From the NCBI RefSeq assembly GCF_009914755.1, contig NC_060943.1: a stretch of 64,000 bases of DNA. The stretch is one strand, 5' to 3'. Shown one piece after another: positions 25,177-28,764 of the stretch. The translations under genes and the position numbers were made by a program. Origin of the DNA: the human T2T-CHM13v2.0 reference genome, Homo sapiens. A model generated the notes under the pieces. The model searched no databases. It was not told the DNA's origin and saw nothing but the letters and a program-made list of their open reading frames with translations. Positions within the stretch are counted from its first letter, which is position 1; every line of letters starts with the position of its first letter.

Positions 25177-26227
25177 GGGGATAAGCTCAGGGCTTCTGGG
25201 TCCTGGAGGAGGAAGAGGCTGCTGATCAGACTCTTGAATCTCAGAGAGAAGGAGGCTGTGCACCCAGACTCCTGGGTCCTTAGAGCCCAAGAAAGAGAGA
25301 ACAGCAAGCAGTTGGGGCAGTGAGGGGTCCTGCGCTTTGTCACATGAGGCTGGTTTGGTTTCACACAGTTCCCGGTAGCTTTTCACATACCCTCCCTTCC
25401 TGGATTGCACAGGCAACGTCCTCCCTCCCCTCCCTGGGGTCCAGTTCCCCGCTTAGTGTGTGATGGGGGAGGGCACTGAGGGTGTCAGATCATCAGTGGT
25501 TTGGGCGGTGGTTTAGTACTTGCCTCTGTCACAGATTCTACAACTCCCACCCATGGAACCTTCAACACCAAGTCGGGGCTTCCTGGAAGAGGTGAGAGAG
25601 AGAGGCTTGGGGGCCCTGAGGTGGGAGGAAGCCAATCAGGCTAGGGTGTACATTAAGGGGGAGGGCAGATGTGGCTGGAGGGGACAGCTGGGGATGTGTC
25701 ATGCTTTCCTGTGGGTTATGCAGTCTTCCATTCTGGGAGAGGAAGTCCCCAAGTCTAGGGTCTCTACTGAAGGAGGGGACTTGGGAGTTAGAACTCCTGG
25801 GGCTTAAGGAGGAAGGAGCTGGGGGCCTGAACTCCAGGTCCTGAGGGAGGAAGAGGCGGGCAGGAGCTCAGAATCCTGGGCCCCAGTTTGGAGCATATGC
25901 CAAGGGCAGGCAAACAGCAGAGAATCACAATTCTGAAAGGTTTGCAGAGAGTCAGACATACCCACATCCTCATCTGATTAATGAGTTCAGTGGCATCCCT
26001 GCTTGGGTGGGGGCTCCAGCCTGGTGGCCTTTATCACCAGGATCGGGGGGCCTAGGGGGTGTTGGGGGACATAAGGATTTTGGTTTAGGGTTCTCCAGCC
26101 CCCCAAACGCTAGCCTCTTCCATCCACACCATCAGGTCCTGGCAACACCTCATCTACGAGCAGGTATAAGGTGACGGTACCACAGCCCAGGTAGAAGGCC
26201 CAGGAAAACTTGACCTCTGTGAAACGG

Positions 26228-26933
26228 TGATATGGTTAGGGTTTGTGTCCCTACCCAAATCGCACCTTGAATTGTGTCCCCATAATCCTCACGTGTCTAG
26301 GTAGAGACCAGGTGGAGGTAATTGAATCATGGGGCCGGCTTCCCCCATGCTGTTCTTGTGATAGTGAGTGAGTTTTCACAAGATATGGTGTTTTTTTAAG
26401 GGGCTCTTCCTGCCTTCGCTTGGCCTTCTTCCTGCCACTCTGTGAAGACAGTGGCTTGCTTCCCCTTCACCTTCCACCATGATTGTAAGTTTCCTGAGGC
26501 CTCCCCAGCCATGCTGAACTGTGAATCAAATAAACCTCTTTCCTTTATAAATTACCCAGTCTCAGGCATTTGTTGTTGTTGTTGTTGTTGTTTGAGACAG
26601 AGTCTCACTCTTGTCACTCAGGCTGGAGGGCAGTGGCAAAATCTCGGCTCACTGCAATCTCCACCTCCCAGGTTCAAGCAGTTCTCCTGCTTCAGCCTCC
26701 CAAGTAGCTGGGATTACAGGTGCCCGCCACCACACCCAGCTAATTTTTGTATTTTTAGTAGATTTCAGGTTTAGTAGATTTTCGGGTTTTCACCATGTTG
26801 GACAGGCTGGTCTTTAACTCCTGACCTCAGGTGATCTGCCCACCTTGGCCTCCCAAAGTGTTGGGATTACAGGTGTGAGCCACCACGCCCGGCCAGGCAG
26901 TTATTTATAGCAGTGTGAGAATAGACTAATACA
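26228..26933 (+). mobile_element. THE1-type (THE1D-like) MaLR solo LTR with a nested Alu (~26570-26895)
   Basis: Begins TGATATGGTTAG, ends GACTAATACA, internal AATAAACCTCTTTCCTTTATAAATTACCCAG. Confidence 0.85.
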
Positions 26934-27229
26934 TAGGGAGTAGTCTGGAAGAGGACCTCTGTCTTGGAGATGAACTGGTCCAGCAGTCCCAGGACAGCTG
27001 GCAAATGTGGAGAATGGGAAATGACCTGGAAGACTGGTTCCTCTCCTTTATTGGAGAGACTCAGATCGGCAGCCCCCATCCTTCACTCAGATCTGCACCA
27101 CTCTGAGAACACATTTATGAGCACAGGCTCCCAGAGGTGGCAGAGGCCATGAGCAGGCCAGGTCTCCGGAAAACCTGCCATGGTGTGCAGTGAGTAGCAG
27201 GTCAGAGCACACAGCCTATCTATCTGTGA

Positions 27230-27712
27230 CCCTGACCCCCTCCCAAACCCAAAGCCATCCTTAACCCCAAACCCAACTCCATCCCCAAACTCAGTATCAA
27301 GCCCAGTTCCAACCACAAATTCAACCCATCCCTATCCCCAAAGTTAACCCTATTCCCATTCCTGAACACAACTCCATACCCAATCCCATCCCTATTCGTA
27401 ATCTCCACCCTAGCTCCAACCCCCATCCTCAAATAGAACTCCATTCTCAGTCCCAACTACACACTCAACCCCATCCCCCGATTCGCCCCATCCCCAAACC
27501 TAGCGTCATTCTAATTCCCAAACTCAACATCATCCTTATTCCCAGTTCCAACCCTTAAACCCTTCCCACCCTCAAATCTAACTCCATTCTCATTCTGAAA
27601 CCCCACCCTATCTCCAAACCAAACCCCTCTCCATTATTAACCCCAGCCCCTACTCCAAACCCAACCCCATCCTCTTCCTGAAACTTGACCCTATTCTCAT
27701 TCCCATCCCAAC
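27230..27712 (+). repeat. Degenerate C-rich hexamer (AACCCC/ATCCCC-like) low-complexity tract
   Basis: 6-nt periodicity; similar tracts on the other strand at ~33340-33470, ~34900-35040 and ~41050-41400. Confidence 0.75.
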
Positions 27713-28764
27713 CCTTTTTTTTTTTTTGAGATGGAGTCTCACTCTGTCACCCAGGCTGGAGTACAGTGGCATGATCTTGGCTCACTGCAACCTCCGCCTC
27801 CTGGGTTTAAGTGATTCCTGTGCCTCAGCCTCCTGAGTAGCTGGGGTTATGGTTGTACGCCACCACACCAGGCTAATTTTTTTTTTTTTTGTATTTTTAG
27901 TAGAAATGGGGTTTTGCCATGTTGGCCAGGCTGGTCTTGAACTCCTGACCTCAGGTGATCCACCTGCCTCAGCCTCCCACAGTGCTGAGATTACAGGAGT
28001 GAGCCACTGCGCCCAGCCACTGTCTTTTCATTCTTCTCTGCAACCTCTATAATTCATACCTAACTCCGACCATTTTCATTCTCCTTTCACCTCCAGGTCC
28101 AAGCCTATAACCTCATTTCTCATCTCCCCAAGTGGGTCCCACTACCACCACCATCACACCCATGCATGCATGCATACACAGAGGTGACCTGTACCTGGCT
28201 CCAGTGAGTCTCTGCACATGTAGGTATCACAGGCTGATCACAGGCCCAGGCCCTCTGACAGACACCACAAGCCAGTAAGAGCGGGTGAGTGAAGGTCATC
28301 TTTTTTTTTTTTTTTTTTTTTTTTTTGAGACGCAGTTTCACTTTTGTTGCTCAGGCTGGAGTGCAATGGCATGATCGGGGCTCACAGCAACCTCTGCCTC
28401 CCAGGTTCAAGAGATTCTCCTGCCTCAGCCTCCTAAGTAACTAGGATTACAGGCATGCGCCACCATGCCCGGCTGACTTTCTATTTTTAGTAGAGACGGG
28501 GTTTCTCCACGTTGGTCAGGCTGGTCTTGAACTCCTGACCTCAGGTGATCCACCTGCTTCAGCCTCCCAAAGTGCTGGAATTACAGGCGTGAGTGACCGC
28601 ACCCAGCCAGCCAAGACCATCTCTTAAGAGCACAAAGGCAAGGCAGCTGGGGCCTTGAAGACAGAATTGCTCGCAGGATCTCCAGCAGCTTTCTCAACCA
28701 GATGTGGTCTGTGGTTGCCAGAGGAAAACCCCAGGCCTCCTTCTGAAGCTTTTCCTGAGAGCTC

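What the first reader, a model, noticed from the sequence alone, without database searches (positions are those of the whole stretch)
25987..28685. Hidden fourth claudin/PMP22-family gene, fossilised between NKG7 and LIM2
Seen on the minus strand, same orientation as the neighbours: (i) an exon-1-like segment starting CTG-GAG-ATC-CTG-CGA (LEILRAI, cf. NKG7 MELCRSL), a hydrophobic SCLAFVLL, then an Alu (28301-28608), SYW, a 1-nt frameshift and LGL*SACDTYMCRDSLEP-G|GT. This is GLW with TGG>TGA (28240-28238), with the same C-x4-C spacing as LIM2 (CLGNKC) and CLDND2 (CNHGIC). (ii) An exon-3-like segment split by a THE1 LTR: 26997-26934 + 26227-26154 = 138 nt including any TSD, versus 135 nt in NKG7/LIM2. 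It reads ...RFTEVKFSWAFYLGCGTVTLYLLV-G (cf. NKG7 FSWSFYLGW) and its donor is mutated to AT. (iii) A 65-nt last exon after CCCCTAG| reading (G)PPILVIKATRLEPPPKQGCH*. All junctions are phase 1, as in the three paralogues. Inference: a gene lost in the primate lineage that may be intact in other mammals. I do not know of an annotation for it. Exon 2 could not be placed confidently.
Basis: partly seen in the sequence, partly recalled or inferred. Interest (0 to 1): 0.85.

Follow-up and report, generated by a model that had tools for sequence, protein, structure and literature searches.

The report
Fossil fourth NKG7-type gene in humans
Between the human LIM2 and NKG7 genes lie the broken remains of a fourth gene of the same membrane-protein family; its closest living relatives are intact "NKG7-like" genes of marsupials, so it looks like a gene our lineage lost.

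Summary
One piece is real beyond chance. It is the 3' half of an exon-3-like segment (26154-26227, minus strand), reading RFTEVKFSWAFYLGCGTVTLYLLV. It is the best unannotated hit in the whole window for a family profile (0 of 100 shuffles reach it).

Its closest relatives are not the human paralogues. They are five marsupial proteins (koala "NKG7-like", wallaby, Tasmanian devil, sugar glider), with 13/17 to 14/24 identities. All three that were scanned are PF00822 members above Pfam's cut-off.

Support for the other pieces:
- **Exon 1, 3' part** (SYW … GL*-SA-CDTYMC … G|GT): specifically resembles wallaby and koala exon 1 (0 of 1000 residue shuffles).
- **Last exon:** weak support (7 to 26 of 1000).
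- **Exon 3, 5' half:** supported only by its position and its acceptor site.
- **Start/first helix and exon 2:** not found.

Visible lesions are a TGA at the GLW tryptophan, a frameshift, an Alu, an LTR with a nested Alu splitting exon 3, and a GT>AT donor.

Verdict: an unprocessed (unitary-type) pseudogene, probably the orthologue of marsupial NKG7-like. RefSeq does not annotate it. The time of loss ("primate lineage") is untested.

The parts
28195..28292 (-). Exon-1-like 3' part. It reads [13 protein letters not shown] in one frame, then after a frameshift EGLGL*SACDTYMCRDSLEP plus a split G. The in-frame TGA at 28240-28238 stands where the family has the Trp of GLW. A GT donor follows at 28194-28193.
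   Evidence: Motif GL[W*]..C....C occurs 3 times in six frames of the 64 kb window: CLDND2, LIM2 and this site. About 0.07 are expected. Against a wallaby+koala profile it scores 9.3 bits, and 0 of 1000 residue shuffles reach that. Against the 4-marsupial profile, 6 of 1000 do. Against the NKG7/LIM2 family profile, 130 of 1000 do, which is not significant. tblastn with koala residues 51-66 gives 8/16 identities, E 4.3. The raw profile score of 15.9 is the top of the interval, but it lies inside window-wide noise.
28301..28608 (-). Alu insertion with A-tail. If exon 1 is real, it sits about 27 nt upstream of the YW codons, where the first transmembrane helix would be encoded.
   Evidence: Read directly. 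Poly-T run at 28301-28326. 'Alu' is named from recall of the consensus.
28609..28685 (-). Not supported as part of the relic.
   Evidence: The two strings lie in different frames. No frame of 28609-28790 scores above -1.9 bits against the marsupial profiles. Nothing here rises above noise in the profile scans.
26934..26997 (-). Exon-3-like 5' half, (A)VLGLLDQFISKTEVLFQTTPY, directly after a pyrimidine-rich ...TTTGCCAG acceptor.
   Evidence: AVLGLLDQFI against marsupial ALLGLVGQSI gives 6/10 identities, starting exactly at the first exon-3 column of the profile. It is the top hit of the interval with the 4-sequence profile (14.1 raw bits) and second with the 2-sequence profile. Similarity alone is not significant: 83, 252 and 240 of 1000 shuffles do as well. 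DNA against NKG7 gives z 0.4. The support is positional.
26228..26933 (.). Solo LTR-type dispersed repeat (recalled as THE1/MaLR) carrying a nested Alu (about 26570-26896). It is inserted into exon 3.
   Evidence: 40 of 40 scored genomic copies match at 83-88% identity. Alignments end at 26228 and start at 26933.
26154..26227 (-). Exon-3-like 3' half, RFTEVKFSWAFYLGCGTVTLYLLV plus a split G. It holds the family FSW motif and the fourth helix. AT at 26153-26152 replaces the GT donor.
   Evidence: Family profile: 8.2 bits in the six-frame window, the best unannotated hit. 0 of 100 dinucleotide shuffles of 60 kb reach it; their maximum is 3.1. In the interval alone it scores 11.3 bits, E 1e-5. 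Marsupial profile: 11.0 bits, above NKG7 exon 3 at 7.7; 0 of 100 shuffles exceed -0.7. tblastn gives 14/24 identities with glider, wallaby and koala, E 8e-5 to 4e-4. DNA against NKG7 exon 3 gives z 10.1. The stretch is unique in the human assembly.
25987..26051 (-). Possible last exon, (G)PPILVIKATRLEPPPKQGCH*, after CCCCTAG. It lies 102 nt downstream of exon 3b; intron 3 of NKG7 is 104 nt.
   Evidence: Appending it to exon 3b raises the marsupial profile score more than shuffled versions do in all but 7 of 1000 (4-sequence profile) or 26 of 1000 (2-sequence profile). With the NKG7/LIM2 profile, 126 of 1000 do as well. It is not among the top five exon-4 hits of the interval. DNA against NKG7 exon 4 gives z 2.0. 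Support is weak.

Best explanation
The interval holds an unprocessed pseudogene with its intron positions kept. It is the remains of a fourth member of the CLDND2-NKG7-LIM2 tandem cluster and is most likely the human orthologue of the gene annotated in marsupials as 'NKG7-like'. It has no coding function now.

What is shown:
- The 3' half of exon 3 is a true family sequence.
- It is closest to the marsupial proteins.
- The 3' part of exon 1 resembles the same marsupial proteins.
- The locus carries a stop codon, a frameshift, two repeat insertions in coding sequence and a destroyed splice donor.

What is inferred:
- Orthology. It rests on best-match similarity and on marsupial gene models that fuse this gene with NKG7, which implies it sits just upstream of NKG7, as here.
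- That the ancestor was a four-helix membrane protein like NKG7.
- That exon 2 and the start were deleted or have decayed beyond recognition.

The order and date of the lesions are unknown.
For: (1) A family profile was built from 65 NKG7/LIM2 orthologues plus the 3 window genes. It finds all real exons, then 26164-26235 as the next hit (8.2 bits). Nothing else is above -3.8. 0 of 100 shuffles reach 8.2.

(2) FSW.[FY][FYIL].G occurs 4 times in six frames: the three genes and this site. No match occurred in 200 shuffles.

(3) In all three paralogues, as in the relic, FSW lies 19 residues before a phase-1 exon end.

(4) The exhaustive representative search (648 proteins at E<=0.001, best 150 listed) contained P0143. 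This is a sugar-glider model whose N-half matches the relic 14/24, better than it matches NKG7 exon 3: 33.5 against 27.7 bits.

(5) Its relatives are 5 marsupial proteins and nothing else: 5 of 81 word-sharing candidates at E<=0.001. Among 249 stored family proteins they are the relic's top five hits, at 34.6-36.3 bits. The best other stored protein, an unnamed representative (P0122), scores 29.5 bits; named NKG7 orthologues score 29.1.

(6) The marsupial profile ranks the relic first in the window, with 0 of 100 shuffles close.

They score 9.3 bits against wallaby+koala, with 0 of 1000 shuffles reaching that. After the second Cys both have 6 residues and then the junction.

(8) The wallaby, koala and devil proteins pass Pfam PF00822 (38.8, 37.2 and 32.1 bits against a cut-off of 26.7).

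(9) The tree places marsupial NKG7-like inside the NKG7 group (94/97) but outside the marsupial+placental NKG7 clade (98/98). The duplication therefore predates the marsupial-placental split.

(10) The intron next to exon 3b is not similar to that of NKG7 (z 0.3). The stretch is single-copy. So it is neither a recent NKG7 copy nor a repeat.
Against: - None of the 7 candidate pieces hits Pfam PF00822 or PF13903 at E<=10, whereas 3 of 3 real exon-3 controls do.
- Pairwise tblastn with the human paralogues is only borderline (NKG7 E 0.084, LIM2 E 0.89 in the window).
- For the Tasmanian devil protein, the best window hit is NKG7 exon 3 (30.8 bits). The relic is second (28.5 bits).
- The exon-1 piece is within window-wide noise by raw profile score: at least 12 unrelated hits of 16 or more in 128 kb. 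It is not significant against the NKG7/LIM2 profile (130 of 1000).
- Exon 3a is not better than shuffled sequence.
- Exon 2, the start codon and the first helix were not found.
- If the LTR made the usual 5-bp target duplication (recalled), the original exon 3 was 133 nt, not 135. The two halves would then be out of frame.
- The marsupial clade sits on a very long branch (3.25 changes per site), so its place in the tree is uncertain.
- Synteny in marsupials is inferred from fused or shared gene models, not seen in DNA.
Confidence: 0.82

Rival explanations
1. It is a partial duplicate. Only a fragment of an NKG7-type gene (exon 3, perhaps exon 1) was ever copied here, or it was patched in by gene conversion. 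In that case no complete fourth gene existed in the placental lineage, and the likeness to marsupial NKG7-like reflects shared ancestry of the NKG7 group rather than orthology.
For: Only exon 3b is secure. Exon 2 and the start are absent. The core of exon 3b is very close to NKG7 at the DNA level (z 10.1). The devil protein matches NKG7 exon 3 slightly better than it matches the relic.
Against: The relic shares GxGTxTLYLL with the glider, wallaby and koala proteins, which NKG7 orthologues lack. The exon-1 piece resembles wallaby/koala exon 1 and carries the C-x4-C that placental NKG7 has lost. The pieces are collinear, on the right strand, and have family-typical phase-1 ends. Fused marsupial models put the gene directly upstream of NKG7.
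Confidence: 0.1
2. It is a chance resemblance. Ordinary intergenic DNA happens to spell family-like motifs.
For: The pieces are short. There is no Pfam hit.
Against: 0 of 100 shuffles reach the score with either of two profiles. Both family motifs are found only in the three genes and here. An independent set of marsupial proteins picks this site as its best match in the window.
Confidence: 0.03
3. The relic sequence is now kept for another use. It might be part of the NKG7 upstream control region, since exon 3b lies about 860-930 bp upstream of the NKG7 start. Or it might be an exon of an unannotated non-coding transcript. This does not exclude a pseudogene origin.
For: It is close to the NKG7 promoter (hub annotation). 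The 24-codon stretch is still open and is 58% identical to the marsupial protein. Functional human NKG7 is 54% identical to glider NKG7 over the whole of exon 3 (46 residues).
Against: No conservation data could be consulted. RefSeq lists no functional element at 25987-28685 (hub table). Openness over 24 codons is unremarkable.
Confidence: 0.05

Closest known systems
Marsupial 'NKG7-like' proteins. These are koala P0247 'Protein NKG7-like', wallaby P0246 'uncharacterized protein', Tasmanian devil P0248/P0249 'protein NKG7 isoform X3/X2', and the N-half of the sugar-glider model P0143.
   Same: They are the best match of exon 3b (14/24; 13/17 in the core, including GxGTxTLYLL). Exon 1 has YWL … GLW-xA-C-x3-MC-xD with the same 6 residues to the junction. 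They belong to PF00822. They appear to lie directly upstream of NKG7.
   Different: The marsupial genes are intact (180-194 aa). The human locus is broken in at least six ways and lacks exon 2 and the start. The spacing between YW and GLW is 14 residues in marsupials and 10 1/3 codons in the relic.
Human NKG7 (the neighbouring gene, 24261-25295)
   Same: It has the same strand and four-exon, phase-1 plan. FSWxFYLG is nearly identical at the DNA level (z 10.1). Intron 3 is of similar length (104 against 102 nt).
   Different: Placental NKG7 lacks the two loop cysteines that the relic keeps. Its introns are not alignable with the relic's (z 0.3). It is a different clade in the tree.
LIM2 (MP20) and CLDND2, the other cluster members
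   Same: They share GLW-xx-C-x4-C in the first loop, FSW before the fourth helix, and phase-1 junctions.
   Different: Only 8/27 (LIM2) and 6/27 (CLDND2) identities around FSW.
Unitary (unprocessed, non-duplicated) pseudogenes of the human genome, as a class (recalled concept)
   Same: Introns are retained, the locus is syntenic, there are multiple disabling lesions, and the orthologue is intact in other mammals.
   Different: Loss in humans only versus in all placentals is not established. No intact eutherian copy was seen.

Membership tests
PMP22/EMP/MP20/claudin family (Pfam PF00822) | Significant match to the Pfam profile | tested here: not met
   None of the 7 relic pieces matches PF00822 or PF13903 at E<=10. 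The real exon 3 of NKG7, LIM2 and CLDND2 matches at E 1.1e-5, 7.9e-10 and 0.017. The spliced product could not be sent to the Pfam tool.
PMP22/EMP/MP20/claudin family (Pfam PF00822) | Significant match to a profile of close family members (NKG7/LIM2/CLDND2 orthologues) | tested here: met
   Exon 3b scores 8.2 bits in the window and 11.3 bits (E 1e-5) in the interval. 0 of 100 shuffles reach it. The spliced product scores 16.7 bits, E 2.3e-7 for that one sequence.
PMP22/EMP/MP20/claudin family (Pfam PF00822) | First-loop signature W…GLW…C…C | tested here: inconclusive
   YW, GL(TGA) and C-x4-C are present with the spacing seen in LIM2 and CLDND2. However, the Trp codon is a stop and a frameshift intervenes.
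PMP22/EMP/MP20/claudin family (Pfam PF00822) | Four transmembrane helices | tested here: not met
   Only the fourth helix (exon 3b) is recognisable. The third is doubtful. The first and second were not found. This is expected for a relic.
Orthologue of marsupial NKG7-like | Mutual best similarity | tested here: met
   Glider, wallaby, koala and the marsupial profile all hit the relic first in the window. The relic hits the five marsupial proteins first among 249 family proteins. Exception: the devil protein hits NKG7 exon 3 slightly better.
Orthologue of marsupial NKG7-like | Same chromosomal neighbourhood (between LIM2 and NKG7) | not testable with these tools
   No marsupial DNA is held. The evidence is indirect. 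The glider model P0143 splices this gene's exon 3 to NKG7 exon 2. The devil proteins are filed as NKG7 isoforms.
Unitary pseudogene | Disabling lesions in a locus that keeps intron positions | tested here: met
   TGA at 28240-28238, a frameshift near 28251-28255, an Alu at 28301-28608, an LTR at 26228-26933, and donor AT at 26153-26152.
Unitary pseudogene | No intact copy elsewhere in the same genome | tested here: inconclusive
   A whole-assembly search with wallaby P0246 gave only 5 weak matches (E 0.57-5.75), none on chromosome 19. That search missed the relic and NKG7 too, so it is insensitive.

The most novel reading that the evidence does not exclude
The common ancestor of marsupials and placentals had four genes in this cluster. 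The fourth, an NKG7-group paralogue that kept the loop cysteines, survives as a working gene only in marsupials and was lost in the placental stem or later. The human relic is its unannotated unitary pseudogene and can be used to date that loss. Because NKG7 acts in cytotoxic-granule release (recalled), marsupials may have a second, unstudied granule-membrane protein.
Probability: 0.55. Interest if true: 0.55.

Novelty: new member of a known kind. Interest (0 to 1): 0.5.

Why it matters
The finding adds a lost gene to a well-studied immune and lens gene cluster. It links an uncharacterised marsupial gene family ('NKG7-like') to a datable loss in our lineage. It also corrects the picture of the cluster from three to four ancestral members.

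The practical value is modest. It gives a pseudogene annotation for T2T-CHM13 and GRCh38. It offers a marker for dating (two Alu elements and one LTR inside coding exons). It gives a reason to ask what the marsupial gene does.

No paper in the searchable library uses the term 'NKG7-like' (0 papers). Three other searches gave no title on this topic; only listings were seen. RefSeq lists nothing between NKG7 and LIM2 (hub table). GENCODE/Ensembl could not be checked, so prior annotation there cannot be excluded.

Tried and rejected
- **Pfam on single pieces:** nothing for the relic. One piece gave PAN_2/PAN_4 at E 0.02, which is noise.
- **Word-indexed protein search with the 41-aa open frame:** 6 candidates, none scoring.
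- **My spliced profile alignment with a cheap intron penalty:** it chained noise and was abandoned.
- **Per-exon scans:** these found no exon 2 and no credible start. The best 'exon 1' hits with the NKG7/LIM2 profile were Alu A-tail lysines.
- **DNA comparison of introns and of exon 3a with NKG7, LIM2 and CLDND2:** not significant.
- **A 22-nt DNA match between the NKG7 first-helix coding sequence and 28250-28230** (z 3.8, 2 of 300). This suggested a rival reading of the GL* region as helix 1. I rejected it because a stop follows at once and the marsupial profile supports the loop reading.
- **The 'PYH' in front of exon 3b:** it looked like the NKG7 'PxH' but is encoded by the LTR end. The marsupial-profile hit lies wholly outside the LTR.
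- **Whole-genome protein search with wallaby P0246:** uninformative.
- **The hamster fused model P0002:** it joins LIM2 exon 3 straight to NKG7 exon 2 with no extra exons. This is only a weak hint that rodents lack the gene.
- **A dinucleotide or natural-sequence null beyond this window:** not built.
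Full report
**Setting.** The window is human chr19 (T2T-CHM13). It holds CLDND2, NKG7 and LIM2, all on the minus strand. 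I spliced their coding exons by the hub's coordinates. All three have four coding exons with phase-1 junctions. Exon 3 is 135 nt in NKG7 and LIM2 and 120 nt in CLDND2. FSW lies 19 residues before the exon-3 end in each. LIM2 and CLDND2 have GLW-xx-C-x4-C in exon 1, and human NKG7 has GLW without the cysteines.

**Observation.**
- The repeat inside exon 3 is a dispersed family. There were 4999, 3437 and 297 first-look candidates in the three searches. 40 were scored each time, and copies matched at 83-88% identity.
Its name (THE1/MaLR) is from recall only.
- The 261 nt around exon 3b and the putative exon 4 are single-copy in the assembly.

**Is exon 3b more than chance?**
- Pairwise tblastn with the human paralogues is borderline: NKG7 gives E 0.084 with 11/25 identities, and LIM2 gives E 0.89.
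- Pfam on the isolated pieces gives nothing for the 7 relic pieces. The three real exon-3 controls hit PF00822.
- A search with an alignment of the three real exon 3s plus the relic returned 541 proteins at E<=1, of which the best 120 were listed. These were vertebrate NKG7 and LIM2 orthologues.
- I built a profile from 65 of these (150-200 aa) plus the three window proteins and ran it over the six-frame window. It found all real exons and then 26164-26235 at 8.2 bits. This is above the true last exons of NKG7 (1.2) and LIM2 (-1.4), and nothing else is above -3.8.
- 0 of 100 dinucleotide shuffles of the 60-kb background reached 8.2; the maximum was 3.1.
- Within the 7.2-kb interval the hit is 11.3 bits, E 1e-5 per frame.
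- The first three residues of that hit (PYH) are encoded by the LTR end and are coincidence.
- The motif FSW.[FY][FYIL].G occurs four times in six frames (three genes plus the relic). No match occurred in 200 mononucleotide shuffles.
- At the DNA level, exon 3b against NKG7 exon 3 gives z 10.1 (0 of 300). The adjoining intron gives z 0.3.

**The marsupial relatives.**
- An exhaustive profile search of 1.84 billion representatives used a profile of 48 full-length NKG7 and LIM2 proteins. It gave 648 proteins at E<=0.001, of which the best 150 were listed.
- One of them, P0143, reads ...FFFEWVFYLGWGTSTLYLLS in its first half and then continues as NKG7 exons 2-4.
- tblastn of that first half against the window hits the relic first (E 8.2e-5, 33.5 bits, 14/24) and NKG7 exon 3 second (27.7 bits). 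Its second half hits NKG7 exon 3 at 62.4 bits.
- My last word-indexed search, with P0143 residues 55-152, gave 5 proteins at E<=0.001 among 81 candidates. All are marsupial: the sugar-glider 'protein NKG7' fused model, a wallaby 'uncharacterized protein', koala 'Protein NKG7-like', and two Tasmanian devil 'protein NKG7' isoforms.
- Wallaby, koala and devil pass PF00822 at 38.8, 37.2 and 32.1 bits against a cut-off of 26.7.
- Wallaby and koala hit the relic first in the window (E 3.6e-4 and 2.0e-4). The devil protein hits NKG7 exon 3 first (30.8 bits) and the relic second (28.5 bits, 12/17).
- A profile of the four marsupial sequences ranks 26155-26220, wholly outside the LTR, first at 11.0 bits. 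NKG7 exon 3 follows at 7.7. 0 of 100 shuffles exceed -0.7.
- Conversely, among the 249 stored family proteins the relic's five best matches are the five marsupial proteins (13/17 identities, 34.6-36.3 bits). The best other stored protein, an unnamed representative (P0122), scores 29.5 bits; named NKG7 orthologues score 29.1.

**Tree.** A maximum-likelihood tree of 30 proteins puts the marsupial clade inside the NKG7 group (94/97) but outside the clade that unites marsupial and placental NKG7 (98/98). It sits on a very long branch of 3.25 changes per site, so its placement needs caution. Many unnamed NKG7-group representatives that fall outside the therian NKG7 clade in the tree keep GLW-xx-C-x4-C. 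A relic with an NKG7-like exon 3 and the two cysteines is therefore coherent.

**The other pieces.** I then compared each piece with 1000 residue shuffles of itself.
- *Exon 1, 3' part ([14 protein letters not shown] / EGLGL*SACDTYMCRDSLE).*
  - It scores 9.3 bits against wallaby+koala, with 0 of 1000 shuffles reaching that.
  - It scores 1.8 bits against the four-marsupial profile, whose columns here are damaged by a devil deletion (6 of 1000).
  - It scores -1.0 against the NKG7/LIM2 profile (130 of 1000).
  - The aligned strings are pywlkiqvshtnlylglwkacgdkmcedilks against SYWLVVSVRG-EGLGLXSACDTYMCRDSLE.
  - After the second Cys both have six residues before the junction. The marsupial junction is inferred from the devil isoforms and the glider fusion.
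  - GL[W*]..C....C occurs three times in the window (CLDND2, LIM2, relic) against 0.07 expected.
  - By raw score in a frameshift-tolerant scan, this site is the top exon-1 hit of the interval (15.9). But at least 12 unrelated places in the 128 kb of both strands score 16 or more, so position-blind significance is lacking.
- *Exon 3a.* Replacing it by shuffles does as well in 252, 83 and 240 of 1000 trials with the three profiles. Its support is that AVLGLLDQFI aligns to the first ten exon-3 columns (6/10 identities with ALLGLVGQSI) directly after a good acceptor. It also restores an exon of 138 nt against the family's 135. If a 5-bp target duplication is subtracted (recalled for this LTR class; the flanks are CCCTA and CCGTT), the length is 133 and the halves are out of frame.
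- *Exon 4.* Appending it beats shuffles in all but 26, 7 and 126 of 1000. This is weak support, and last exons in this family are poorly conserved anyway.
- *Start and first helix.* No frame of 28609-28790 scores above -1.9 bits.
- *Exon 2.* No hit was found between 28195 and 26998. That stretch holds an Alu (about 27706-28041) and a G/T-rich degenerate repeat.

**Mechanism.** The locus is a dead gene. The visible lesions are:
- TGG>TGA at the GLW tryptophan;
- a frameshifting shortening between YW and GLW (10 1/3 codons against 14 in marsupials);
- an Alu where helix 1 should be encoded;
- loss of exon 2;
- an LTR with a nested Alu in exon 3;
- GT>AT at the exon-3 donor;
- no start codon.

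Which lesion came first cannot be told here. In the glider model, this gene's exon 3 splices in frame to NKG7 exon 2. That fits phase-1 junctions and a position just upstream of NKG7, the position of the relic.

**Timing and novelty.**
- Only marsupial intact relatives surfaced. The hamster fused model P0002 joins LIM2 exon 3 directly to NKG7 exon 2.
- My protein searches were capped, and ranks 151-648 were not seen. An intact placental orthologue is therefore not excluded.
- A whole-assembly search with the wallaby protein was too insensitive to count.
- Literature: 'NKG7-like' gave 0 papers. Searches combining NKG7 with LIM2, CLDND2, pseudogene, PMP22, tandem duplication or unitary pseudogene gave 6, 2 and 1 papers, none on this topic by title. 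Only listings were seen, and no paper was read.
- RefSeq lists nothing in 25296-32539 (hub table). GENCODE could not be consulted.

**Verdict.** The locus is a genuine, apparently unannotated, unprocessed pseudogene. It is most likely the human orthologue of marsupial NKG7-like. The kind is known, and this member appears to be new.

Noticed in passing
window 27240-27705: A G/T-rich stretch (on the minus strand) made of degenerate units of about 24-30 nt (GGGTTGGG.. / GGAATGAGAAT..). It lies between the exon-1-like and exon-3-like pieces, where exon 2 would be expected. TRF reports only 27493-27544 (period 24, 2.2 copies).
   Followed up: partly
protein P0001: The Pyrenean desman model 'Claudin domain-containing protein 2, partial' (881 aa) strings together two nearly identical NKG7 copies and CLDND2. 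This is either a recent NKG7 duplication or an assembly or annotation artefact.
   Followed up: no
protein P0002: The Chinese hamster model 'Sialic acid-binding Ig-like lectin 10' (763 aa) fuses SIGLEC10, LIM2 exons 1-3, NKG7 exons 2-3 and CLDND2 exon 1. No exon of a fourth gene appears between LIM2 and NKG7.
   Followed up: no
protein P0148: An unnamed 167-aa PF00822 representative is the sister of the marsupial NKG7-like clade in the tree (93/88). It shares 11/24 residues with the relic's exon 3b. Its organism is unknown here. It may be an orthologue of the fourth gene outside marsupials.
   Followed up: partly
window 28250-28230 against 25138-25117: A 22-nt DNA match with one gap links the relic's GLGL* region to the NKG7 first-helix coding sequence (z 3.8, 2 of 300 shuffles; alignment). 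I judged it to be GC-rich chance similarity.
   Followed up: yes
window 26570-26896: An Alu with a (CAA)n-type tail is nested inside the LTR that splits exon 3 (TTG repeat at 26570-26592). It gives a second datable insertion.
   Followed up: no
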